Shown piece after piece: positions 939 to 40,414 of a stretch of DNA of 64,000 bases. The notes under the pieces are model-generated. The model was not told the origin of the DNA. It ran no database searches and saw nothing but the letters and a program-made list of their open reading frames with translations. Origin of the DNA: an uncultured Alphaproteobacteria bacterium (lineage in GTDB: Bacteria > Pseudomonadota > Alphaproteobacteria > Rickettsiales > CAIJLX01); contig CAIJLX010000022.1 of assembly GCA_903821695.1 (NCBI GenBank), positions 12,406 through 76,405 of the forward strand, read 5' to 3'. Positions within the stretch are counted from its first letter, which is position 1. Each line of letters starts with the position of its first letter. Position numbers and translations under genes: made by a program.

Positions 939-1609
939 GCCGACTTTGGCCGCAGCACGTAGCCCTGCCCCCATACTGATTGCAGATATTTAGGCTGGCG
1001 AGGGTCGGACTCTAGTTTTTTGCGGAGGCGGGTGATTTGGACATCGACGGAACGTTCGCTGATGCCGTTCAGGCGTTTCGATAGGTTTTCGCGGGAGATG
1101 GGTTGGCCGATTTGTTCGCAGAGAATTTCTAATAATTTGATTTCGGTGGAGGTTAAAAATACGGCAACTCCGGCTTGGGTAAGCTCGCCGGTTGAGGCAT
1201 CGAAACGAAAATCACCGAACGTCAATTCCTTGCTTCTTGCAGGAGGGGTGCGGCGGAGGATGTTTTCGATGCGCAGTAATAATTCGCGGGGCTCGAAAGG
1301 TTTGACCAGATAGTCATCGGCGCCGCTTTCTAGGCCTTTGATGCGGTCGGCGACTTCGCCCATGGCGGTTAGCATGAGGATGGGAACGGGCTGTTCCAGG
1401 CGGATGGATTGGGTGAGTTGGACGCCATCTTCGCCCGGCATCATCACATCCACAATCAGCAGATCATATTGTTTTTCTTTAAGCTTTTCGCGGGCAATGC
1501 CAGCATTTTCAGCGGCATCGACGTGATAGCCTTCGGCGACGAGGAATTCGGTGAGAAGCTCGCGCAACCGGGTATCGTCATCGACCACCAATATTAATTT
1601 TTCATTCAT
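935..1609 (-). CDS. OmpR/PhoB-family DNA-binding response regulator
   Basis: Receiver domain (VVDDD, DVMMPGEDG, LTA, DDYLVKPF) and winged-helix C-terminus (RSVDVQITRLRKKLE, VWGQGY). Confidence 0.93.
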   Translation of the reverse strand: MNEKLILVVDDDTRLRELLTEFLVAEGYHVDAAENAGIAREKLKEKQYDLLIVDVMMPGEDGVQLTQSIRLEQPVPILMLTAMGEVADRIKGLESGADDYLVKPFEPRELLLRIENILRRTPPARSKELTFGDFRFDASTGELTQAGVAVFLTSTEIKLLEILCEQIGQPISRENLSKRLNGISERSVDVQITRLRKKLESDPRQPKYLQSVWGQGYVLRPKSA

Positions 1610-1680
1610 TTTGCTTGGAAAACTGGAAAAAAAGAATTAAAAGAACGCTCTCTTTTATAGCAGCCTTAAGGAATTTTTCT

Positions 1681-2553
1681 ATGCAAATAGTGCCCTTTGA
1701 CGACCGTGATGGGTTTATCTGGAAGAACGGCAAACTTCTCCCCTGGAGAGAAGCGAAGCTCCATGTGATGAGCCATGGCCTCCATTATGGTTCCTCTGTG
1801 TTTGAAGGTGAACGGGCATATAACGGCAAAATCTTTAAGTCTCGTGAGCATTCTGCACGCCTGCACCGCTCCGGCGAATTGCTCGGCTTCAAGGTTCCTT
1901 ATACGATTGATCAGCTTGAGGCTGCAAAAACCGAAGTACTGAAAGCCAATGGCGTTTCGAATGCCTATGTTCGTGCATTCGCTTGGCGTGGCTCGGAGAA
2001 GATGGCGATTTCGGCTGCTAACACGACCATTCATGTTGCGATTGCTACTTGGGAAATGCCAACTTATTTCGCGGCGGAACTCAAAGCAAAAGGCTTGGAT
2101 CTTTGCTGGGCGGATTATAAACGCCCCTCCCCTGAAACAGCCCCGAGCGAAGCAAAAGCGGCAGGGCTTTATATGATCTGCACAATCAGCAAACATAAGG
2201 CCGAAGCTTCGGGTTTTCATGATGCGTTAATGCTCGATTATCGTGGCTTTGTTGCGGAAGCAACGGGCGCGAATTTCTTTATGGTGGTTGATGGTGAATT
2301 ACATACGCCGAAGCCAGATTGTTTTTTGAATGGCATCACCCGCATGACTGTGATCGACCTCGCGAAGAAGCGTGGTATTAAAGTTGTCGAGCGCCACATT
2401 AAGCCGGAAGACTTGGTAAACGCACAGGAAGCCTTCTTAACCGGGACCGCAGCAGAAATTACGCCAATCGGCACAATCGGCGATTACAAGTTTGTCCCTG
2501 CTGCCGTGACCCAACAACTGATCGCGGATTACGAAGCGCTTACGCGAGCGTAA
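1681..2553 (+). CDS. ilvE: Branched-chain amino acid aminotransferase (PLP class IV)
   Basis: LHYGSSVFEG, EAKAAGLY, EATGANFF, LNGITR, AFLTGTAAEITP. Start moved to ATG 1681, which follows an AAGGA SD. Confidence 0.92.
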   Translation: MQIVPFDDRDGFIWKNGKLLPWREAKLHVMSHGLHYGSSVFEGERAYNGKIFKSREHSARLHRSGELLGFKVPYTIDQLEAAKTEVLKANGVSNAYVRAFAWRGSEKMAISAANTTIHVAIATWEMPTYFAAELKAKGLDLCWADYKRPSPETAPSEAKAAGLYMICTISKHKAEASGFHDALMLDYRGFVAEATGANFFMVVDGELHTPKPDCFLNGITRMTVIDLAKKRGIKVVERHIKPEDLVNAQEAFLTGTAAEITPIGTIGDYKFVPAAVTQQLIADYEALTRA

Positions 2554-3563: not shown

Positions 3564-4313
3564 TTAATTATCCTCTAATATTTGTGCGTTGTGCTTGCTG
3601 ATTAATGCACGCAATTCTTGTGCGACTTTGTCGAGTGCCGCTACATCGGTCGAGCGGCACACCAAACTTACTCCTAATTTACCGTCGCGGATAAAGGGGT
3701 AACTGCCGATTTCAACATTCGGATTGGCTTCTTGTATCGCGGTGAGTTCGGCGGCGATATAGCCTTCCGTAACGGTTGCAGAAATCGTGCGAGACAACGT
3801 TACTGCTCCACCTTTTATGCGAGCACTTACACCATCCAACATCGCCTGCATAATTCGTGGCACGCCCGCCATTACATAAACATTTTCTAATATAAATCCT
3901 GGCGCGGCGGAAACAGGGTTATCAATCAATTCGGCGCCTTCTGGAATATCAGCCATTTTGAGACGCGCGGCGTTGATGTCTTCGGGTTTATAATGTTTGC
4001 GTAACCGGGCTTCGGCTTCCGGGTGGCGTAATAATTTTTTGCCAAAGGCTTTGGCGATGGTGGCGGTGGTAATATCATCGTGGGTTGGGCCGATGCCGCC
4101 GGAGGTGAAAACATAATCATTGCGGCCGCTCAAAGATTGCACCGCTTCGATAATCGCGTTTTCGTTATCGGAAACCACGCGGCACTCGACTAATCGCACC
4201 CCTAATTTGCCCAAGGTTTTCGCCAAATAATTAAGGTTTGCATCCTGCGTTCTACCGGATAGAATTTCATTACCAATAATCAGTAGCGCAGCTGTCGGTT
4301 GTAGGTTATGCAT
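3564..4313 (-). CDS. CinA/molybdopterin-binding-domain protein (competence/damage-inducible family)
   Basis: IIGNEILSGRTQDAN, SGGIGPTHDDIT, AGVPRIM. Confidence 0.85.
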   Translation of the reverse strand: MHNLQPTAALLIIGNEILSGRTQDANLNYLAKTLGKLGVRLVECRVVSDNENAIIEAVQSLSGRNDYVFTSGGIGPTHDDITTATIAKAFGKKLLRHPEAEARLRKHYKPEDINAARLKMADIPEGAELIDNPVSAAPGFILENVYVMAGVPRIMQAMLDGVSARIKGGAVTLSRTISATVTEGYIAAELTAIQEANPNVEIGSYPFIRDGKLGVSLVCRSTDVAALDKVAQELRALISKHNAQILEDN

Positions 4314-33623: not shown

Positions 33624-35537
33624 TTATTGCATCCATACCCAGGTGATTACGCCAACTAAGCCCAACAGCATCGCGAAGGCATAATGATAGAGATAGCCGC
33701 TTTGCAATTTTGAAAGGCGACCGCCGAACCAATAGGAAAGTTGTGAAACGCCGTTGGGTCCGAGACCGTCGACAATTTTTACATCGCCCACTTGCCAGAA
33801 GAAAGTGCCGAGCGCTTTTGCAGGACGTACGAACAGGAATTCATAGAGCTCATCGACATACCATTTATTGTAGAAGAGAACATAAATTGGGCGGAAAATT
33901 TGGGTCATTTTTGTAGGTAACGATGGTACTAGCAGATAGAAAATATAGGCTAGTGTGATGCCAGCGAGTGCTACAAATTTTGTCCAAAGTGGGTGTTCGC
34001 CGTGGTGGAGGAATGGGTTGTGTTCGCTGAGCGATACAAGTGCACCACGCCAGAAGCTGTAATCGCCATCGACCATTTTGAATACTTCCTCGCCGAGATA
34101 GCCGGAGAAGAGTGCGCCGAGGACTAAGACGATAAGTGGCACTAACATGATGGCAGGAGATTCATGCACGTGATCCCACACTTTTTTGCTGCAACGTGGT
34201 TTGCCGTGGAAGGTCAAAATCAATAAGCGCCAGGAATAAAATGCGGTGAGGAAGGAAGTAAGCTCCCCGACATAAAATGCATAATGTGCGAATGGGCTTT
34301 CGGAGCCATGCGCCGCATGCAAGATCGCATTTTTGGAATAGTAACCGGCGAAGAATGGGATACCCGCAATTGCGAGTGAGCCGATCCAGAAAAGAGCATA
34401 AGTGAATGGAATTTTTTTCCAGAGGCCACCCATTTTTTGCATGTCTTGCTCGCCGGACATTGCGTGGATTACGCTACCTGCGCCTAAAAACAAGAGGGCT
34501 TTGAAAAAGGCATGGGTCATGAGGTGGAACACGCCAGCGGAATAAGCGGAAACGCCGCACGCGAAGAACATATAACCAAGCTGCGAGCAGGTGGAATAAG
34601 CGATTACTTTTTTGATATCGTTTTGGGTAAGTGCGATGGTGGCGGCAAACAGTGCGGTGGTGGCGCCGACAACGGTGATGAGCATTAAGGCGATCGGTGC
34701 ATATTCATAGAGTGGTGACATGCGGGCAACGAGGAATACACCGGCGGTTACCATCGTTGCGGCGTGGATTAATGCGGAAACCGGGGTTGGGCCTTCCATG
34801 GCGTCTGGCAACCAGGTGTGCAAACCGAGCTGGGCGGATTTGCCCATTGCGCCGATGAAGAGCAAAATGCCGATGAGGGTGAGAGCGTGAATGTCATAAC
34901 CCAATACGGTATAGACAGCGCTTACTTGGTTTGGCACAGCAGCGAAAATATCGGCAAAATGGATGCTACCAAAGATGGTGAAGGTTAGCAGCAAACCGAG
35001 CATAAAGCCTAGATCGCCCACGCGATTTACGATGAATGCTTTCATAGCAGCAGCGTTGGCGGAGGGACGTTTATACCAGAAGCCGATTAATAAATACGAG
35101 CAGAGGCCTACGCCTTCCCAGCCTAAGAAAAGTTGCAGCAGATTATCGGCGGTTACCAGCATCAACATGAAGAAGGTGAAGAGCGACAAGTAGGAGAAGA
35201 AGCGTGGGGTGTGTTCGTCATCATGCATGTAGCCGATGGAATAAATATGAACGACAGCGGAGACCCAGGTGACGACGACTAGCATCACGGCGGTCAATAC
35301 ATCAACACGGATGACCCAATCAATCGAGAGGGTGCCGGAGGAAATCCAGTTAAAGAGATGGAGGGTATAAGACTGACCATCGATTGCGACGTTTTTGAAA
35401 GTGATGCCAGCGAGGATGGCGGCGATGACCAGAAAACCGGAGGTAACATATTGCGCGAGATGCTCGTTAATACGGCGGGTGTTTAGGCCTACTACCAACG
35501 CGCTTAACAATGGCAAAAAGACGATCCAACCTGCCAT
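33624..35537 (-). CDS. nuoL: NADH-quinone oxidoreductase subunit L
   Basis: GWEGVG, KSAQ..LHTWLPDAMEGPTPVSALIHAATMV, DIKKVIAYST, HAFFKA. Confidence 0.97.
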   Translation of the reverse strand: MAGWIVFLPLLSALVVGLNTRRINEHLAQYVTSGFLVIAAILAGITFKNVAIDGQSYTLHLFNWISSGTLSIDWVIRVDVLTAVMLVVVTWVSAVVHIYSIGYMHDDEHTPRFFSYLSLFTFFMLMLVTADNLLQLFLGWEGVGLCSYLLIGFWYKRPSANAAAMKAFIVNRVGDLGFMLGLLLTFTIFGSIHFADIFAAVPNQVSAVYTVLGYDIHALTLIGILLFIGAMGKSAQLGLHTWLPDAMEGPTPVSALIHAATMVTAGVFLVARMSPLYEYAPIALMLITVVGATTALFAATIALTQNDIKKVIAYSTCSQLGYMFFACGVSAYSAGVFHLMTHAFFKALLFLGAGSVIHAMSGEQDMQKMGGLWKKIPFTYALFWIGSLAIAGIPFFAGYYSKNAILHAAHGSESPFAHYAFYVGELTSFLTAFYSWRLLILTFHGKPRCSKKVWDHVHESPAIMLVPLIVLVLGALFSGYLGEEVFKMVDGDYSFWRGALVSLSEHNPFLHHGEHPLWTKFVALAGITLAYIFYLLVPSLPTKMTQIFRPIYVLFYNKWYVDELYEFLFVRPAKALGTFFWQVGDVKIVDGLGPNGVSQLSYWFGGRLSKLQSGYLYHYAFAMLLGLVGVITWVWMQ

Positions 35538-35538
35538 A

Positions 35539-35850
35539 TCAACCCTTCATCACATTGATATCCTCAACCGCGATCGAGCCACGGTTGCGGAAATAGACGA
35601 CTAGAATTGCGAGGCCAATCGCAGCTTCTGCAGCAGCGACGGTAAGTATAAACATGGTAAAGATTTGTCCGACTACATCGCCCATATAAGCGGAGAAAGC
35701 GACGAAGTTGATGTTCACGGAGAGGAGCATTAATTCGATCGACATTAATAATGTGATTACGTTTTTACGGTTCAGGAAAATGCCGCAGACACCGATGGTA
35801 AACAGCAGCGAGGCGAGCACGAGATAATGTAGGAGCGTGATCTGCATCAT
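35539..35850 (-). CDS. nuoK: NADH-quinone oxidoreductase subunit K
   Basis: SIELML and [10 protein letters not shown], with both conserved Glu. Confidence 0.96.
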
Positions 35851-36461
35851 ATGCCCTTACCCGATTTTACTTTCACCATCGAGACCGAATCTGCCACATT
35901 GCGATGCACCTGTTTGCGGATATTTTGGCGGCGGACGCCTGGGCGATGGCGCAGTGTCAGCACGATTGCACCGATCATCGCCACCAGCAGAATGGCGCCC
36001 GAAATAATAAATGGGTATGCGTATTGCGTATATAACACATGGCCGATTGCCTCGGCGTTTGTTCCTTTTACGCCCGCAACAACTGGTGTTGGTTCAGCTG
36101 CAAATTTTACGGTGGAAGCTTGCAGGATTAAAAATAACTGAACGAACATGATTGCTGCAACGGCGCCACCGAAGGGGAGATAACGCAAGAAGCCGGCTTT
36201 GAGTTCGGCGAAATTAATATCGAGCATCATCACAACGAATAGGAACAACACTGCGACGGCGCCAACATAAACAATCACCAACGTCATCGCGAGATATTCG
36301 GCGCCTAGCAGAACGAACAGGCCAGCAGCGTTAAAGAAGCAGAAGATGAGGAATAGGATAGAATGCACGGGGTTTTTGGCGGAGACGACCATCACGCCAG
36401 AAAGAACAGATAAAAACGCAAAGACGTAAAATAGAAGGGGTATCAGCATCTTGTCTGACAT
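35847..36461 (-). CDS. nuoJ: NADH-quinone oxidoreductase subunit J
   Basis: [37 protein letters not shown]. Confidence 0.96.
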
Positions 36462-37406
36462 TCATACTGATTGAAGCTCACGAGGTCTAGGTAAATTTTC
36501 AAGCAGATGTTTCCGAATATATTCGGCCGCACGGGCGGCTTCATTCAGACCCAAATCGAAGGTGCGTTTTGGGTCAAATGCGCTCAATGGCCCCGCCTTT
36601 TCCGCCGCATAAAAGGAATGGTGCAATTGCTGATATTGGAAAAAACGACCTTCCGGCGCATAAATCCAGGTCGGCTTGCCGCTCGATACGGCTTCGGACA
36701 CCATGCGGGCGGAATCGCCTGTCACCACCACATGCTCAGCCAGTGACAACATTATCGCATAAGGGTTAGGATTAATGGCACGACGTTTAAAATCATAAAT
36801 AAAGTTGGGCTGCGGCAAATAATCAATCAATGCCTGCGAAATTTTCAGTGGTGTACGTGGGCTAGTCGTCGCGAGCACCGTTCCGCCTTGCGCCTTTAAG
36901 GTTTCGACAATAGCGATAATATCTTCTTCCTTGACGTCATCACCCACATGTACGCCACCAACCAATAGTGCGATCACTGGCGATTGCAGTTTGAGGCCCT
37001 CGAGGAACGGATATTTCCCTGTCAGAAAATCCGCCTTCGCCCGGTTGAGGCGATCTGGATTTACTTTATTAATATAGCCGGTGGTGAGGAATATATCGTC
37101 ATACCTTGGTAGCGGCTCATGGTTTGGAGCGATGACCAGGTCGAAGAAATCCAAATCCGGACCCGGATCCAAAATCGAAACCGTAGGCACTGCGCCTTGC
37201 AATAAATGTTTAAACGCAACGGCATGGGGTGCTGCAATAGCGCCACAGGAAAGAATCACATCAGGCTTTTGCAAATGGGTAAAAGATTGGAACCCTTCGC
37301 GTTCAATTTCGGCAACGCTGATGATTTGGATAGAGCCCAAATGCTCAGCGACAGCTTCAGCCATCACCGTACGGTGTGAATCATCTGAGATGATGAGGGT
37401 ATGCAT
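36462..37406 (-). CDS. ELM1/GtrOC1 (DUF1022)-family GT-B-fold protein
   Basis: I.DP.....FDLVIAP.HE, ALLVGG, TTS.RTP, NPY...L..A...VVTGDS..MVSEA..SGKP pattern. Confidence 0.8.
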   Translation of the reverse strand: MHTLIISDDSHRTVMAEAVAEHLGSIQIISVAEIEREGFQSFTHLQKPDVILSCGAIAAPHAVAFKHLLQGAVPTVSILDPGPDLDFFDLVIAPNHEPLPRYDDIFLTTGYINKVNPDRLNRAKADFLTGKYPFLEGLKLQSPVIALLVGGVHVGDDVKEEDIIAIVETLKAQGGTVLATTSPRTPLKISQALIDYLPQPNFIYDFKRRAINPNPYAIMLSLAEHVVVTGDSARMVSEAVSSGKPTWIYAPEGRFFQYQQLHHSFYAAEKAGPLSAFDPKRTFDLGLNEAARAAEYIRKHLLENLPRPRELQSV

Positions 37407-37888
37407 CAGCGGTACGGCGCATCCGCCGCCAGACGTCCGGCGATTTCGGTTTCCCAGCGCTCGCCATTGGCTAGCAGTTTGTTTTTATTATAGAGCAGTT
37501 CTTCATGCGTTTCGGTCGCATATTCAAAATTCGGCCCTTCCACAATGGCATCCACCGGGCATGCTTCCTCGCAGAACCCACAATAAATGCATTTGGTCAT
37601 ATCAATATCATAACGCGTGGTGCGGCGGCTGCCATCATCCCGCACTTCGGCTTCAATGGTGATCGCCTGCGCCGGGCAAATCGCCTCGCATAATTTACAA
37701 GCAATGCAACGCTCCTCACCATTCGCATAACGCCGCAGCGCATGTTCACCACGGAAACGAGGGCTCAATGGCCCCTTCTCATACGGATAATCAATCGTCA
37801 CCGGCCGCTTGAACATGTAGCGCAGCGTCAACGACATCCCGCTCAAAAGCTCAGTCAACAATAACGAACGTGCAAACTTATCGATCAT
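37406..37888 (-). CDS. nuoI: NADH-quinone oxidoreductase subunit I
   Basis: Two CxxCxxCxxxCP ferredoxin motifs; SPRFRGEH. Confidence 0.97.
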
Positions 37889-37897
37889 AGGTAAGTA

Positions 37898-37925
37898 GTT
37901 CTACAGAGAACAAAAAAATTTGCAA
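37898..37925 (-). promoter_or_regulatory. Putative sigma70 promoter of the nuoI-ELM1-nuoJKLMN operon
   Basis: Minus strand TTGCAA-N16-TAGAAC, with the ATG 9 nt later and no SD; immediately after an upstream terminator. Confidence 0.5.
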
Positions 37926-37931
37926 GAAGGC

Positions 37932-37970
37932 AAAAAAAGAGGAGGCAAACCCAATGGATATGCCTCCTCT
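37932..37970 (-). terminator. Intrinsic terminator closing the csrA islet
   Basis: Minus strand AGAGGAGGCA-N13-TGCCTCCTCT followed by a T-run. Confidence 0.85.
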
Positions 37971-37971
37971 C

Positions 37972-38073
37972 TTACTTGGAAAAACTAGAATCACGCTGAA
38001 GTGCGTTGGTATGTACGTGAAGAATAAATTTCTTCAACGTGATTCCGTTTCCTGATCTCGAGAAAATTACCAT
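37972..38073 (-). CDS. Putative 33-aa small ORF (MVIFSRSGNGITLKKFILHVHTNALQRDSSFSK)
   Basis: ATG 38073 has GAGGGA 9 nt upstream, is in frame with csrA, and stops just before the terminator. No recognisable homology. Confidence 0.25.
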   Translation of the reverse strand: MVIFSRSGNGITLKKFILHVHTNALQRDSSFSK

Positions 38074-38103
38074 CAACAGTAATCCCTCAAGACCAGCTTT
38101 TGT

Positions 38104-38325
38104 TCATTGATCACCAGCATGTTCCTCCAGCTTTAGATCAATATAGGTGATCGCCTGACCATCACCCAGCTCTTCATCTTCTCTGAGCTCTTCCCGGACG
38201 ATGTTCATATCCCTTGGTGCCTCAATACCTATTCTCACAGTATTGTGGTCGATTCTGACGATCGTCACCGTGACGTTCTGTCCGATCAAAATCTTTTCGC
38301 CAGGCTTTCGAGAAAGTACCAGCAT
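38104..38325 (-). CDS. csrA: Carbon storage regulator CsrA/RsmA family RNA-binding protein
   Basis: MLVLSRK.GE.I.IG....V.......VRIGIEAP....I.REEL plus an acidic tail; SD AAGGGGGA 7 nt upstream. Confidence 0.92.
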   Translation of the reverse strand: MLVLSRKPGEKILIGQNVTVTIVRIDHNTVRIGIEAPRDMNIVREELREDEELGDGQAITYIDLKLEEHAGDQ

Positions 38326-38441
38326 GGTACAATCCCCCTTATCTACCAGCTCCGCTGGTGTTATGGGAACTCAAGAGATGCGTGCAGTTCACATAACAAA
38401 TGTGAACTAATCCATTTATGCACTGCATCCCTTTCGTTCCC
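38326..38441 (-). promoter_or_regulatory. Structured GGA-rich RNA element upstream of csrA (leader or sRNA)
   Basis: 77-nt imperfect hairpin at 38365-38441, ACCAGC-GGA-GCTGGT hairpin at 38345-38359, and five GGA motifs including the SD. Confidence 0.55.
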
Positions 38442-38545
38442 GTAAAAGGCATTTTCAAGAAATTAGTAAGCAAAAAACCAATAAGAAACATTGTCATAAT
38501 ACCCAACCAATATGACAAAATGATGACAGCTAGCCTCAATAATCC

Positions 38546-38620
38546 CGTCATCCCGGCGGAGGCCGGGAGGGGATCCATCTTTCTGTCGGGGCCGTGGATC
38601 CCGGCCTCCGCCGGGATGGC
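38546..38620. repeat. CGTC-type REP-like palindrome pair (inverted dimer)
   Basis: CGTCATCCCGGCGGAGGCCGGGA(GGGG)ATCCA ... TGGATCCCGGCCTCCGCCGGGATGGC, directly downstream of the xerC stop. Confidence 0.8.
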
Positions 38621-38632
38621 TTGGGGAGGTTT

Positions 38633-39523
38633 TTAGGCCCTCGGAAACAATTTTTGGTAGTTTTCGGCCATTTGTAGGGGGGTTAGGTGGGTGTAGATTT
38701 GGGTGGTGGAGAGGCTGGCGTGGCCTAGGCATTCTTGGATCACCTTTAAATCGGCACCGTTGCTCAGCATATGGGTCGCGAAAGAGTGCCTTAGGGCATG
38801 GGGGGTAAGGTGTTCGGGGAGTTGTAGCGTTTTTCGCAATTTTTGAATATTTCTTTGAAATACAGCAGGTTGCAGGCGTTTTCCTCGGCTGCCGATGAAT
38901 AAAGCAGGCTCTAGCGGATAGGGGCGGATATCTAGATAATCTTTAATGGCGGCTCGGGCTTCCTCCAAAAACGGGACTAAACGCTCCTTATTTCCCTTGC
39001 CAATGACCCGTAACATGGCGCCTTTGCTATCGCTGATATTGAGGGCTAGGGCCTCGGAAATACGCAATCCGGCGGCATAAAGTAGGGTAAAAAGGGCCAA
39101 ATCCCGCCGTGCCATCCAGCCTTCGTCCCATATTTCAAGAATTCCAGCCCGGGATTCCTTGGCTTGGCCGATGGAAATGGCTCGTGGCAACCTTTTAGGC
39201 CGTTTCGGGCTTTTGAGTGCCTTAACGGCCGGGTTTTGGATGTCATAGCGGCGAGCTAGAAAGGTAAAGAAACTGCGGAGAGTAGCCAAGGCCCTAGCGT
39301 TTGAGCCGATGGCGAGTTTTTCGGTGACTCGGGCACTCATCCAACTGCGCAGATCGGTGACACTTAATTTTTTGAGAGCTTCGAGGGTGAGGCTCGCCTC
39401 GTTATGTTTCTGCCAAAAGGCTACAAAATGGCCCATATCATAGCGATAATTGCCGATCGTGCGTGGAGAGCAGCGTTTTTCCTGTCTTAAATAATTTAGC
39501 CACTCTTCCATTGCGTCCTGCAT
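38633..39523 (-). CDS. xerC: Tyrosine recombinase XerC
   Basis: GLRISE, GKGNKER, PHALRHSFATH and LGHASLSTTQIY: catalytic R-K-H-R-H-Y intact. Start moved to ATG 39523. Confidence 0.9.
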   Translation of the reverse strand: MQDAMEEWLNYLRQEKRCSPRTIGNYRYDMGHFVAFWQKHNEASLTLEALKKLSVTDLRSWMSARVTEKLAIGSNARALATLRSFFTFLARRYDIQNPAVKALKSPKRPKRLPRAISIGQAKESRAGILEIWDEGWMARRDLALFTLLYAAGLRISEALALNISDSKGAMLRVIGKGNKERLVPFLEEARAAIKDYLDIRPYPLEPALFIGSRGKRLQPAVFQRNIQKLRKTLQLPEHLTPHALRHSFATHMLSNGADLKVIQECLGHASLSTTQIYTHLTPLQMAENYQKLFPRA

Positions 39524-39544
39524 GTGCCTATTGTAAATCGCCTC

Positions 39545-40414
39545 ATGCAGATTTTCCACACTCTTCGCAGCTATCCGAAACCGACGGCCCTCGCGATTGG
39601 CAATTTCGATGGCGTGCATCAAGGCCACCAGGCAATTATCGCCGAAGCCAAAAGCAAAGGCCTCACCCCTGCCCTGCTCACCTTTTATCCGCATCCGTCA
39701 AAACTTTTTCGCCCCGATAATCATGCGCTGCGGATTAATACGTTGGCCGATAATTTCCACCTACTCGCAAAAACAGGATTGGAAGTCATCTTCCTCCAAC
39801 ATTTCCACGCACCCTTTTCCAAAACCGAAGCGGAACATTTCATTAAAGATGATCTGATCGCCCGCTATCATGCTGAACATATTATCGTCGGCGAAGATTT
39901 CGTCTTCGGCCACCAACGCAAAGGCAACACGGAATTATTGCAAGCAGCCGGCCTCAAGGTTACTTGCCTAAAACCAGTGATGGTGGAAGGTGCAGCTTGT
40001 TCTTCGACTCGCATCCGCAAAGCAATAACGGAAGGCGATATCACCAACGCCAATCTATTATTAGGCCGTCCATTTGCAATCACCAGCAATGTCCGCCAAG
40101 GCCAACAAAAAGGCCGCACGATTGGGTTTCCGACGCTCAATCTTAAACTACGCGAGGGTTTGGTTGTTCCGCGATATGGGGTTTATGCGGTTTCGATCGC
40201 GGGTCAAAAAGCGATTGCCAATTTCGGTGTGCGGCCGACGGTAACAGAAGATAAAACACCAACATTAGAAGTACATCTCATTCAACCCAAAATCATTCCC
40301 GATTATGGTGATAAACTAACCGTCGAATTCCATCGCTTCATCCGCCCTGAGCAGCGCTTCGCTAATATAGAAGCTTTGCAAAAGCAAATTGCACAGGATA
40401 TAGAAGCGCTATGA
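39545..40414 (+). CDS. ribF: Bifunctional riboflavin kinase/FAD synthetase
   Basis: GNFDGVHQGH, G.DF.FG, SSTRIR, GRTIGFPT.N, G.RPT, LEVH; start at ATG 39545. Confidence 0.95.
   Translation: MQIFHTLRSYPKPTALAIGNFDGVHQGHQAIIAEAKSKGLTPALLTFYPHPSKLFRPDNHALRINTLADNFHLLAKTGLEVIFLQHFHAPFSKTEAEHFIKDDLIARYHAEHIIVGEDFVFGHQRKGNTELLQAAGLKVTCLKPVMVEGAACSSTRIRKAITEGDITNANLLLGRPFAITSNVRQGQQKGRTIGFPTLNLKLREGLVVPRYGVYAVSIAGQKAIANFGVRPTVTEDKTPTLEVHLIQPKIIPDYGDKLTVEFHRFIRPEQRFANIEALQKQIAQDIEAL

What the first reader, a model, noticed from the sequence alone, without database searches (positions are those of the whole stretch)
37932..38520. Self-contained csrA islet in an alphaproteobacterium: candidate imported Csr-type regulatory system
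Seen: a ~600-bp unit of AT-rich promoter region, structured GGA-rich leader, csrA (73 aa, acidic tail), small ORF and terminator, between nuoI and a REP/xerC, with no fliW or flagellin beside it. Known: CsrA/RsmA is standard in Gammaproteobacteria, Firmicutes and Campylobacterota but scarce on alphaproteobacterial chromosomes. Inference: the N-terminus (MLVLSRKPGEKILIG...APRDMNIVREEL) recalls planctomycete CsrA proteins from memory, not from a search. This suggests horizontal acquisition with its own RNA control elements, perhaps regulating flagellar or surface-glycan mRNAs. A chimeric contig is the main alternative.
Basis: partly seen in the sequence, partly recalled or inferred. Interest (0 to 1): 0.8.

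Follow-up and report, generated by a model that had tools for sequence, protein, structure and literature searches.

The report
Planctomycete-type second csrA in an alphaproteobacterium
An uncultured lake alphaproteobacterium that already has its own flagellum-linked CsrA regulator also carries a second, self-contained csrA gene that came from planctomycete bacteria; this is a clean case of a known kind of event, a borrowed RNA-binding regulator.

Summary
The csrA unit is real: promoter-like site, structured leader, 73-aa CsrA (Pfam E=3e-23), structured 3' region and terminator, lying between xerC/REP and nuoI.

This CsrA is 88-94% identical to Planctomycetaceae (Schlesneria-type) CsrAs. It is at most 54% identical to any CsrA in 301 genomes of its own order. 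It nests inside the planctomycete clade (99/95 support), and an AU test rejects vertical descent (p=0.0015).

The premise was wrong. The order has a native FliW-CsrA system (29/41 and 28/41 genomes). This genome has fliW and a second, native csrA elsewhere.

The contig is not a chimera:
- Single-run unitigs span both junctions.
- An independent metagenome contig has the same xerC-csrA-nuoI order.
- A deeper relative has an intact nuoH-nuoI "empty site".
- The gene's GC content and synonymous divergence match the host.

The imported copy keeps the RNA-binding residues but lacks the FliW-contact residues (E51/D55). It shares a GGA-hairpin-plus-SD leader layout with planctomycete copies, which suggests autorepression.

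Two things remain unexplained:
- A sister lineage holds a different planctomycete-type csrA in the same slot.
- The 215-nt csrA-nuoI spacer is 97.7% conserved against dS of about 0.3.

Verdict: new member of a known kind, of moderate interest.

The parts
38104..38325 (-). csrA, 'type P' (planctomycete-type), 73 aa. The fold domain is residues 1-47, followed by a 26-aa acidic tail.
   Evidence: Pfam PF02599 E=3e-23; PDB CsrA matches. 88-94% identity to Planctomycetaceae CsrAs over aa 1-49 and at most 54% within its own order. Nested in the planctomycete clade at 99/95. RNA-binding positions L2, L4, R6, K7, M40, I42, R44, L47 are kept; FliW-contact positions are E51 and D55.
38326..38482 (-). 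5' leader of about 157 nt if the promoter-like site is used. It contains a long imperfect hairpin at 38365-38441.
   Evidence: Fold z=-6.0. Single copy in the genome. 90% identical to L104 overall, higher near the start codon.
38345..38359 (-). 6-bp hairpin ACCAGC-GGA-GCUGGU with GGA as its loop, 29 nt before the ATG: a candidate CsrA binding site.
   Evidence: MFE structure; coordinates. Identical in L104. An equivalent GGA site lies at -38..-28 in 65 of 79 planctomycete type-P leaders and in the unrelated L146 cassette.
38333..38340 (-). Shine-Dalgarno AAGGGGGA containing a second GGA, 18 nt downstream of the hairpin GGA.
   Evidence: Sequence. An A[AG]GGG SD is present in 44 of 79 planctomycete copies.
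38490..38518 (-). Promoter-like site TTGTCA-17-GACAAT for csrA.
   Evidence: Consensus scan. The -35 lies in the 19-nt block conserved in all three carriers. This is a consensus match only; there are no transcript data.
38511..38529 (-). Left boundary block CTGTCATCATTTTGTCATA, directly after xerC. It is identical in the window, L104 and L146.
   Evidence: Three-way alignment. A 19-mer scan of metagenomes gave only chance hits.
38530..38632 (.). REP-like palindromic element of about 100 bp, a later host insertion that is not part of the csrA unit.
   Evidence: Absent from L104 and L146 at the same place. Its arms recur on at least 7 other contigs of the genome.
37981..38096 (-). 3' untranslated region with two long hairpins of about 20 bp (H1 38052-38096, H2 37981-38051).
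   Evidence: Fold z=-7.6; coordinates. 126 of 128 nt are identical to L104, while synonymous sites differ by dS of about 0.3. Single copy. No Rfam family. Absent from L146.
37932..37972 (-). Intrinsic terminator of csrA: GC-rich 13-bp stem, then U7.
   Evidence: Folds. L146 has a different stem at the same position.
37898..37925 (-). Promoter-like block TTGCAA-N16-TAGAAC for nuoI-N, forming the right boundary. It is conserved in all three carriers.
   Evidence: Alignment. Inference only. nuoI has no obvious SD and only about 10 nt between the -10-like hexamer and the ATG.
37406..37888 (-). nuoI, the first gene of the detached nuoI-ELM1-nuoJKL... block.
   Evidence: Pfam Fer4. 85% identical to the nuoI of relatives, in which nuoH directly precedes it.
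38633..39694 (-). Xer-type tyrosine recombinase (housekeeping XerC/XerD type). Its true start is probably M58, at 39523.
   Evidence: Pfam Phage_integrase plus SAM-like N domain. There are exactly two such genes per genome, here and in 4 relatives.

Best explanation
The unit is a horizontally acquired second csrA gene. It came from the Planctomycetaceae CsrA lineage (closest to Schlesneria-type copies). That lineage is also carried by temperate phages.

The gene became fixed in one small clade of an uncultured, flagellated lake alphaproteobacterium. It sits at a junction created when the nuo operon broke between nuoH and nuoI. It has been there long enough to take on host base composition, and it has diverged together with its neighbours under purifying selection.

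Shown:
- foreign origin;
- residence since before the window and L104 lineages split;
- an intact gene;
- a native FliW-CsrA pair elsewhere in the genome.

Inferred:
- The protein is an active homodimeric GGA-binding translational repressor.
- It represses its own translation by bridging the GGA in the loop of the -29 hairpin and the GGA in its Shine-Dalgarno, as E. coli CsrA does on its own leader.
- It is not controlled by the host's FliW, because the two FliW-contact residues are replaced (E51, D55).
- It therefore adds a FliW-independent layer of GGA-dependent control on top of the native flagellar partner switch.
- The strongly conserved, highly structured 3' region is a functional RNA. 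It may be a stabilising or processed 3' UTR, or an insulator in front of the new nuoI promoter. It is not a small protein gene.

My confidence is about 0.9 for the origin and history, and about 0.5-0.6 for the inferred mechanism.
For: Family: Pfam CsrA E=3e-23; PDB CsrA matches.

Foreign origin:
- The best 120 of 5.8 billion proteins are planctomycete wherever they are named.
- 80 named-genome loci are nearly all Planctomycetaceae at 88-94% identity.
- Across 301 genomes of the same order the best identity is 54%; the genome's own second copy is 39%.
- In the ML tree, the window and L104 sit inside a 62-sequence planctomycete clade (99/95, branch 3.2). The second copy sits in the order-native clade (99/95) as sister to G001 (99/90).
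- AU test of vertical grouping: delta lnL 66, p=0.0015.

Direction of transfer: the planctomycete copies share a recurring chromosomal neighbourhood, and the alphaproteobacterial pair is nested among them.

Not an artefact:
- L104, from another sample, has xerC-csrA-nuoI at about 92% nt identity.
- Unitigs from single runs span 37822-38226 and 38266-38604 exactly.
- L145 has intact nuoH-nuoI with no csrA.
- dS is 0.34 (xerC), 0.37 (csrA) and 0.28 (nuoI).
- csrA GC is 0.47 against host 0.48 and donor loci 0.575; nt identity to donors is only 73-80%.

Functional state: dN/dS 0.27; RNA-binding residues kept.

Native system: PF02599 in 29/41 genomes, FliW in 28/41, own fliW behind flgK-flgL.

FliW independence: I/V51 and N55 are required and conserved in FliW-regulated CsrAs, and N55D abolishes binding in B. 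subtilis (PMC7829508). The window has E51/D55; the native copy has I51/N55. No fliW lies within 4 kb of any of 80 planctomycete copies.

Autoregulation layout.

3' RNA: z=-7.6. 5 of 215 differences against a synonymous-site rate of 0.15, P=6e-10. The low-divergence tract is bounded on both sides by normal divergence.

Mobilome link: type-P-like csrA lies in phage early modules with integrase, exonuclease VIII, methyltransferase and replication O-like genes.
Against: - No transcript or binding data exist. The only metatranscriptome hit came from other organisms' conserved nuoI and xerC segments.
- GGA enrichment by count is marginal.
- The hairpin loop is a tight triloop, not the usual 5-6-nt loop of CsrA sites.
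- CsrA is short (56 aligned columns), so the fine position inside the planctomycete clade is unresolved. The nearest-sister grouping is only 88/94.
- The leader and 3' region show no blastn similarity to donor loci, so their origin is open.
- The conservation of the 3' region rests on a single pair of sequences, with no covariation.
- FliW independence is inferred from two residues, not tested.
- No vector is identified: plasmid and phage records hold only copies at 54% identity or less. The phage contigs with type-P-like copies are less similar (64-82%) than chromosomal Schlesneria copies.
Confidence: 0.75

Rival explanations
1. Assembly chimera or contamination: a planctomycete fragment was mis-joined into an alphaproteobacterial contig.
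For: The genome is a 111-contig metagenome-type assembly, and the protein is planctomycete-like.
Against: - The same xerC-csrA-nuoI order occurs on an independent contig from another sample.
- Single-run unitigs cross both junctions with no mismatches.
- csrA GC equals host GC, and nt identity to planctomycete DNA is only 73-80%.
- csrA dS equals that of its neighbours.
- A host REP element is inserted in the unit.
- Contamination is estimated at 0.24%.
Confidence: 0.02
2. Vertical inheritance: an ancient alphaproteobacterial paralogue that evolves slowly and was lost almost everywhere else.
For: Several genomes of the order carry extra, non-native csrA copies (G001, G014, G007/G043, G069), so paralogy is common there.
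Against: - None of those extras is type P; they are at most 54% identical.
- The AU test rejects grouping with the order's CsrAs.
- L145, a relative with 82% NuoL identity, has the empty nuoH-nuoI junction.
- The sister genus G001 and four other genera have an unbroken nuo operon.
- Identity of 88-94% to another phylum's protein would require near-stasis in two phyla while the native paralogue diverged to 39%.
Confidence: 0.04
3. Transfer in the opposite direction, from this alphaproteobacterial clade into Planctomycetes.
For: Trees of 56 columns are unrooted, and resolution inside the clade is poor.
Against: - Type P is found in dozens of Planctomycetaceae genera with a recurring chromosomal context. 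It is found in only two closely related alphaproteobacterial contigs.
- The alphaproteobacterial pair is a shallow tip within the planctomycete diversity.
- A relative shows the empty site.
Confidence: 0.02
4. The slot history, question 1: one planctomycete fragment carrying two adjacent paralogues (type b/C and type P) was inserted once. The window lineage then lost b/C and the L146 lineage lost P.
For: - L146 has a different csrA at the same xerC|nuoI slot (45% identity to the window, 84% to planctomycete paralogue b) with conserved flanks.
- In planctomycete loci L055 and L075, b lies about 1 kb upstream of P on the same strand.
Against: - Only 2 of 80 planctomycete loci show the pair within 4 kb.
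- About 1 kb separates the two genes there, and no remnant of the lost partner is visible in either carrier.
- Each cassette has its own leader and its own terminator stem, which looks like two whole units rather than two halves of one insert.
Confidence: 0.3
5. The slot history, question 2: sequential in-situ replacement, or a recurrent insertion hot spot. One planctomycete- or phage-derived csrA cassette displaced another between the conserved flanks.
For: - Sharp flank conservation (a 19-nt left block and the nuoI promoter block) surrounds cassettes that cannot be aligned.
- csrA of this lineage rides on temperate phages.
- Other genomes of the order hold further foreign-looking csrA copies at other sites, so uptake is repeated.
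Against: - The adjacent recombinase is a housekeeping Xer gene, not an element integrase.
- No att-like repeats or mobility genes flank the unit.
- XerC itself is only 74% identical between the two carriers, so unconstrained spacer DNA would be unalignable anyway and the replaced tract may be smaller than it looks.
- No further carriers were found.
Confidence: 0.4

Closest known systems
Accessory csrA paralogues of Legionella pneumophila (core csrA and csrR, plus ICE-borne csrT-type copies; Abbott et al. 2015, PMC4471563)
   Same: There are several CsrA paralogues in one genome. Some were acquired horizontally and are non-redundant with the core copy. One paralogue's mRNA carries a CsrA site, so paralogues can cross-regulate. 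The key RNA-binding arginine is retained.
   Different: - Here the extra copy is not on an ICE and has no type IV secretion genes beside it.
- The donor is another phylum.
- The resident system is FliW-type rather than sRNA-type.
- Cross-regulation is only inferred.
Mobile csrA/rsm alleles on plasmids and phages (Sobrero and Valverde 2020, PMC7366521; S. meliloti plasmid pMBA19a csrA, Agaras et al. 2013 as cited there)
   Same: csrA belongs to the mobilome. An alphaproteobacterium can host a foreign csrA. Phage-borne copies exist. Type-P-like copies sit in temperate-phage early modules.
   Different: - The window copy is chromosomal, ameliorated and fixed, with no mobile-element genes around it.
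- No plasmid or phage record carries a copy above 54% identity.
FliW-CsrA-flagellin partner switch (B. subtilis, C. jejuni, Geobacillus; PDB 5dmb)
   Same: The host genome has this system: fliW lies behind flgK-flgL, and a native CsrA has the C-terminal helix motif with I51/N55.
   Different: - The window's CsrA lacks both FliW-contact residues (E51/D55).
- It has an unrelated acidic tail.
- It scores lower against 5dmb (28 bits) than against E. coli-type CsrA (44 bits).
- It is not linked to fliW in the host or in the donor lineage.
E. coli csrA autoregulation and dual-site binding (own knowledge: Yakhnin et al. 2011; Mercante et al. 2009)
   Same: A GGA lies in a hairpin loop upstream and another GGA overlaps the SD. 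They are 18 nt apart, within the range that one CsrA dimer can bridge.
   Different: - There are only two well-placed sites, against four in E. coli.
- The loop is a triloop.
- No binding data exist.
- No CsrB/CsrC-type sponge was found.

Membership tests
CsrA/RsmA family (Pfam PF02599) | Profile match above the curated cut-off over the whole fold domain | tested here: met
   82 bits against a cut-off of 27, profile positions 1-50 of 53. 81.5 bits in the genome search.
CsrA/RsmA family (Pfam PF02599) | RNA-binding residues of beta1 (2-7) and beta5 (40-47), including the essential R44 | tested here: met
   L2, L4, R6, K7, M40, I42, R44, L47 from an ungapped alignment to E. coli CsrA 1y00. Regions as summarised in PMC7829508.
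CsrA/RsmA family (Pfam PF02599) | Interleaved homodimer fold and GGA-RNA binding | not testable with these tools
   No dimer modelling or binding assay was available. Sequence similarity to solved dimers only.
FliW-regulated CsrA subfamily | C-terminal extension with V/I51 and invariant N55 (FliW contacts) | tested here: not met
   The window copy has E51 and D55. The native copy on C77 has I51 and N55. Criteria from PMC7829508.
FliW-regulated CsrA subfamily | fliW in the genome and linkage to flagellar genes | tested here: inconclusive
   fliW is present on C55 behind flgK-flgL but is unlinked to either csrA. None of 80 donor-lineage copies has fliW within 4 kb.
sRNA-antagonised Csr/Rsm system (CsrB, RsmY/Z type) | A sponge sRNA with many GGA hairpin loops | tested here: not met
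   No Rfam family in the 64-kb window at gathering threshold, or at E<=5 in the islet. The 3' region has only 4 GGA in 172 nt, mostly inside stems. The rest of the genome was not scanned.
Mobile-element-borne csrA (ICE, plasmid, phage) | Mobility, conjugation or phage genes flanking the gene | tested here: not met
   The flanks are nuoI and a housekeeping Xer recombinase, one of two per genome. Relatives of the gene do sit in phage early modules.
Horizontally transferred gene (xenologue) | Nested in the donor clade, absent from the syntenic site of relatives, vertical topology rejected | tested here: met
   tree and AU test; empty site L145; unbroken nuo operon in 5 genera; at most 54% identity within the order.

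The most novel reading that the evidence does not exclude
The xerC|nuoI junction may be a slot where complete, self-regulating csrA cassettes (promoter, GGA leader, gene, terminator) of planctomycete or phage origin are exchanged between lineages. In addition, the type-P cassette may bring, or have evolved, a new structured RNA of about 115 nt (two 20-bp hairpins). This RNA is under stronger constraint than the protein itself. It could act as a 3'UTR-derived regulator or antagonist for a CsrA that answers neither to FliW nor to a CsrB-type sponge.
Probability: 0.15. Interest if true: 0.7.

Novelty: new member of a known kind. Interest (0 to 1): 0.4.

Why it matters
Extra, horizontally acquired CsrA paralogues are known from Legionella, Pseudomonas and a Sinorhizobium plasmid. 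Those are within-phylum cases and sit on recognisable mobile elements.

This case is cleanly documented and crosses phyla:
- The donor lineage and direction of transfer are identified.
- There is an empty site, and the age of the event can be bracketed.
- The host already runs the ancestral FliW-CsrA switch, and the incoming protein has lost the FliW contacts.

That makes it a natural experiment on how two CsrA proteins with the same RNA motif but different antagonists coexist.

It also corrects the idea that alphaproteobacteria in general lack chromosomal CsrA: this order has it widely.

Two observations could be followed up cheaply once more genomes or transcriptomes of this lake clade exist. 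One is the same slot holding two different planctomycete-type csrA genes. The other is the unusually conserved structured 3' RNA.

Tried and rejected
- **Rfam, whole window at gathering threshold and the islet at E<=5.** Only chance miRNA-model hits on the REP palindrome.
- **Metagenome scan with the conserved 19-nt left flank.** 12 hits, none with xerC, csrA or nuoI.
- **Context of P0242, the nearest relative of L146's CsrA.** Planctomycete-like, not another carrier.
- **L144.** The contig starts inside nuoI, so it says nothing about the slot.
- **Metatranscriptome run X8.** It only matches conserved nuoI and xerC pieces of other organisms, with mismatches. No expression evidence.
- **blastn of the leader and 3' region against 80 planctomycete loci and against the host genome.** No homologues, so the origin of the RNA parts is unresolved.
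- **Plasmid and phage record searches.** No type-P copy.
- **G001's uvrC-pgsA-csrA-lysC locus.** It is scattered in this genome, so there is no empty-site test for the type-C copy.
- **Recombination tract as the cause of 3'-region conservation.** Rejected, because divergence is normal immediately on both sides.
- **Small 34-aa ORF as the cause of that conservation.** Rejected as unsupported.
- **Integron-like or element integrase role for xerC.** Rejected, because there are two Xer genes per genome in all genomes checked.
- **The genome search closed during the session.** The class-wide CsrA census and the search for the 3' RNA in relatives were not run.
- **Structure prediction was not run.** CsrA is an interleaved dimer and only monomer prediction was on offer.
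Full report
**1. What is there**

On the minus strand the window reads as follows:
- a Xer-type recombinase (38633-39694);
- a roughly 100-bp palindromic REP element (38530-38632);
- a promoter-like site TTGTCA-17-GACAAT (38518-38490);
- a structured leader of about 157 nt;
- csrA (38104-38325, 73 aa);
- a 3' region with two hairpins of about 20 bp (37981-38096);
- a strong intrinsic terminator (37932-37972);
- a second promoter-like block (37898-37925);
- nuoI (37406-37888), then an ELM1-like gene and nuoJ, nuoK, nuoL.

The protein matches Pfam CsrA at E=3e-23 (82 bits, cut-off 27). It aligns without gaps to solved CsrA structures. The leader and the 3' region fold much better than shuffled controls (z=-6.0 and -7.6).

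By count, GGA is only marginally enriched: 5 against 2.4 expected in the leader (P=0.06) and 4 against 2.1 in the 3' region (P=0.15). The 34-aa ORF in the 3' region has no support.

**2. The host and its own Csr system**

The window lies in the middle of an 85-kb contig. The genome is 2.1 Mb, estimated 100% complete with 0.24% contamination. NuoL's named relatives are uncultured Alphaproteobacteria ('Rickettsiales bacterium', 'Alphaproteobacteria bacterium', Rhodospirillaceae, Novispirillum) at 62-65% identity. The stretch occurs in lake-water metagenomes.

CsrA is present in 29 of 41 sampled genomes of the same order, and FliW in 28 of 41. This genome has fliW behind flgK-flgL on contig C55. 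It also has a second csrA on C77.

That second copy carries the order's signature (MLYLxRK...GFxFP...ILRKE). It also has the FliW-contact residues I51 and N55. Those residues were defined experimentally in C. jejuni and B. subtilis (PMC7829508).

**3. Origin of the window's copy**

- A search of 5.8 billion proteins returns planctomycete CsrAs wherever hits are named.
- A scan of named genomes returns 80 loci. Nearly all are Planctomycetaceae (Schlesneria, Planctopirus, Planctomyces) at 88-94% identity over residues 1-49.
- The same protein searched against 301 genomes of its own order reaches at most 54% identity, and mostly 30-45%. The genome's second copy is 39% identical.
- In a maximum-likelihood tree of 107 CsrAs, the window copy and its one close relative (L104) sit inside a clade of 62 planctomycete sequences (99/95 support, stem 3.2 changes per column), among Schlesneria-type sequences.
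- In the same tree, the second copy sits in the order-native clade (99/95) as sister to the sister genus's copy (99/90).
- Forcing the window copy to group with the order's CsrAs costs 66 log-likelihood units (AU p=0.0015).
- In Planctomycetaceae the gene is solitary, with recurring chromosomal neighbours, and none of 80 loci has fliW within 4 kb. The transfer therefore ran from planctomycete to alphaproteobacterium.

**4. Not an artefact, and roughly when it happened**

An independent contig from another sample (L104) has the same xerC-csrA-nuoI order at about 92% nucleotide identity. It lacks the REP element. The arms of that element recur on at least seven other contigs of the host.

Unitigs from single lake-water runs cover 37822-38226 and 38266-38604 without a mismatch.

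Synonymous divergence between the window and L104 is the same in all three genes: 0.34 in xerC, 0.37 in csrA and 0.28 in nuoI. csrA has dN/dS of 0.27.

The gene's GC content (0.47) equals the host's (0.48), not the donor loci's (0.575). Nucleotide identity to donor genes is only 73-80% and stops at the coding region.

Five genera of the order, including the sister genus, have an unbroken nuoE-F-G-H-I-J-K operon. A closer relative (L145, NuoL 82%) has nuoH abutting nuoI with no csrA, although the ELM1 insertion is already present.

In the window's genome, nuoD-G, nuoH and nuoI-L lie on three contigs in unrelated contexts. The gene therefore sits at a rearrangement junction. The junction arose after the split from the L145 lineage and before the split of the window and L104 lineages.

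**5. Same slot, different gene**

A third carrier (L146: NuoL 86%, NuoI 97%, XerC 74%) has xerC-csrA-nuoI-ELM1-nuoJKL. Its CsrA is only 45% identical to the window's. It is nearest to another planctomycete CsrA type, at 79-96% identity to named Planctomycetota. It is 84% identical to paralogue 'b' of locus L055, but only 72% to the extra copy of sister genus G001.

The flanks are conserved in all three carriers. These are the 19 nt after xerC, and the T-run plus the nuoI promoter-like block. The leader, gene, 3' region and terminator stem between them cannot be aligned.

In two planctomycete loci, the 'b' type lies about 1 kb upstream of type P on the same strand. One co-transfer followed by differential loss is therefore possible. 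Sequential replacement, or a hot spot, is at least as likely.

The adjacent recombinase is one of exactly two Xer genes per genome in every genome checked, so it is a housekeeping gene. I could find no further carriers.

**6. How it probably works**

The RNA-binding positions are kept (L2, L4, R6, K7, M40, I42, R44, L47). The two FliW-contact positions are E51 and D55, and N55D is the very change that abolishes FliW binding in B. subtilis. The protein scores higher against E. coli-type CsrA (44 bits) than against the FliW-bound Geobacillus CsrA (28 bits).

I infer an active GGA-binding repressor that the host FliW does not control.

In the leader, one GGA forms the loop of a 6-bp hairpin 29 nt before the ATG. 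A second GGA lies in the Shine-Dalgarno, 18 nt further on. L146's unrelated cassette has the same layout.

Of 79 planctomycete type-P genes, 65 have a GGA at -38 to -28. In 59 of them it lies in an A.GGA[AT]G context close to the CsrA consensus. This points to autorepression as an old feature of the lineage. It would work as in E. coli csrA (my own knowledge: Yakhnin 2011; dual-site bridging, Mercante 2009). It also opens the leader to the native CsrA, as with Legionella csrR (PMC4471563).

No sponge sRNA was found.

**7. The conserved 3' region**

Between the window and L104, the 215-nt csrA-nuoI spacer differs at 5 positions (97.7% identity). The 128 nt before the terminator differ at 2. Against the third-position rate of nuoI (0.15), this gives P=6e-10.

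Divergence returns to normal immediately on both sides: 14-16% in the 3' half of csrA, and 14% at third positions in the first 50 nuoI codons. Recent recombination is therefore unlikely.

The region is single-copy, matches no Rfam family and is missing from L146. The two changes fall at a G-U position of H1 and in the loop of H2.

I read the region as a functional RNA, or as an RNA plus the nuoI promoter. With one sequence pair there is no covariation, and its role is unknown.

**8. A possible vehicle**

Four IMG/VR contigs (GC 0.54-0.58) carry type-P-like csrA genes, 64-82% identical to the window. The genes sit among an integrase, a RecE-like exonuclease, a DNA methyltransferase, a replication initiator O-like gene and a ParB-like gene. 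This CsrA lineage therefore also travels on temperate phages, in line with the survey in PMC7366521.

The window's closest relatives are still chromosomal Schlesneria copies, and plasmid and phage records hold nothing above 54% identity.

**9. Verdict**

The horizontal, planctomycete origin is well supported. The claim of an 'imported Csr system into a CsrA-less lineage' is not supported.

This is a new member of a known kind: an accessory, horizontally acquired CsrA paralogue. It has two open, potentially more interesting features, the slot shared by two different cassettes and the constrained 3' RNA.

Noticed in passing
window 33624-37888; genome contigs C27:74068-79083 and C108:12587-13669: The nuo operon of this genome is split into three pieces in unrelated contexts: nuoD-G, nuoH alone behind argF, and nuoI-L. 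Five related genera keep it contiguous.
   Followed up: partly
window 36462-37406 (-): An ELM1-like gene (Pfam Mito_fiss_Elm1, E=7e-46) is inserted between nuoI and nuoJ, overlapping both. It is present in L144, L145 and L146 but not in G001, G014, G007, G002 or G012, so it is specific to this small clade.
   Followed up: partly
window 37889-37925 (-): nuoI has no recognisable Shine-Dalgarno. Only about 10 nt separate a conserved -10-like hexamer from its ATG, so the detached nuoI-N block may be expressed from a leaderless or near-leaderless mRNA.
   Followed up: no
window 38530-38632; also C13, C92, C63, C34, C5, C53, C11: A family of GC-rich palindromic REP-like elements (arms CATCCCGGCGGAGGCCGGGA...). 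The copy here is an insertion that the close relative L104 lacks.
   Followed up: partly
L104:3046-5423: The related contig L104 stops matching the window, and the whole genome, inside the ELM1-like gene. Its remaining 2.4 kb has no counterpart in this genome: either a different arrangement or a mis-join in that contig.
   Followed up: no
L003 (G001), L004 (G014), L006/L097 (G007/G043), L143 (G069): Several other genomes of the order carry extra non-native csrA copies of other types at other sites; G069 has four matches. Repeated uptake or retention of accessory csrA genes seems to be a trait of this order.
   Followed up: partly
L160-L163 (IMG/VR contigs), csrA at about 4001-4200 of each: Type-P-like csrA genes sit in the early (integrase, recombination, replication) modules of putative temperate phages with planctomycete-like GC.
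   Followed up: partly
L002 (G000:C77) 1408-1707 (-): The native csrA overlaps the 3' end of a serB-like gene and is followed by a prephenate-dehydrogenase-like gene. It is not linked to fliW or to flagellar genes in this genome.
   Followed up: no
window 39524-39694: The long xerC ORF overlaps the start of the divergent ribF gene. The conserved XerC sequence starts at M58 (39523), which is probably the true start.
   Followed up: no
window 38104-38180 (-); alignment A3: The tails of type-P CsrAs are variable but often end in an alternating hydrophobic/acidic stretch (IDLKLEE here; IDVH, IELTV, IEIH in planctomycetes). This could be an extra beta-strand.
   Followed up: no
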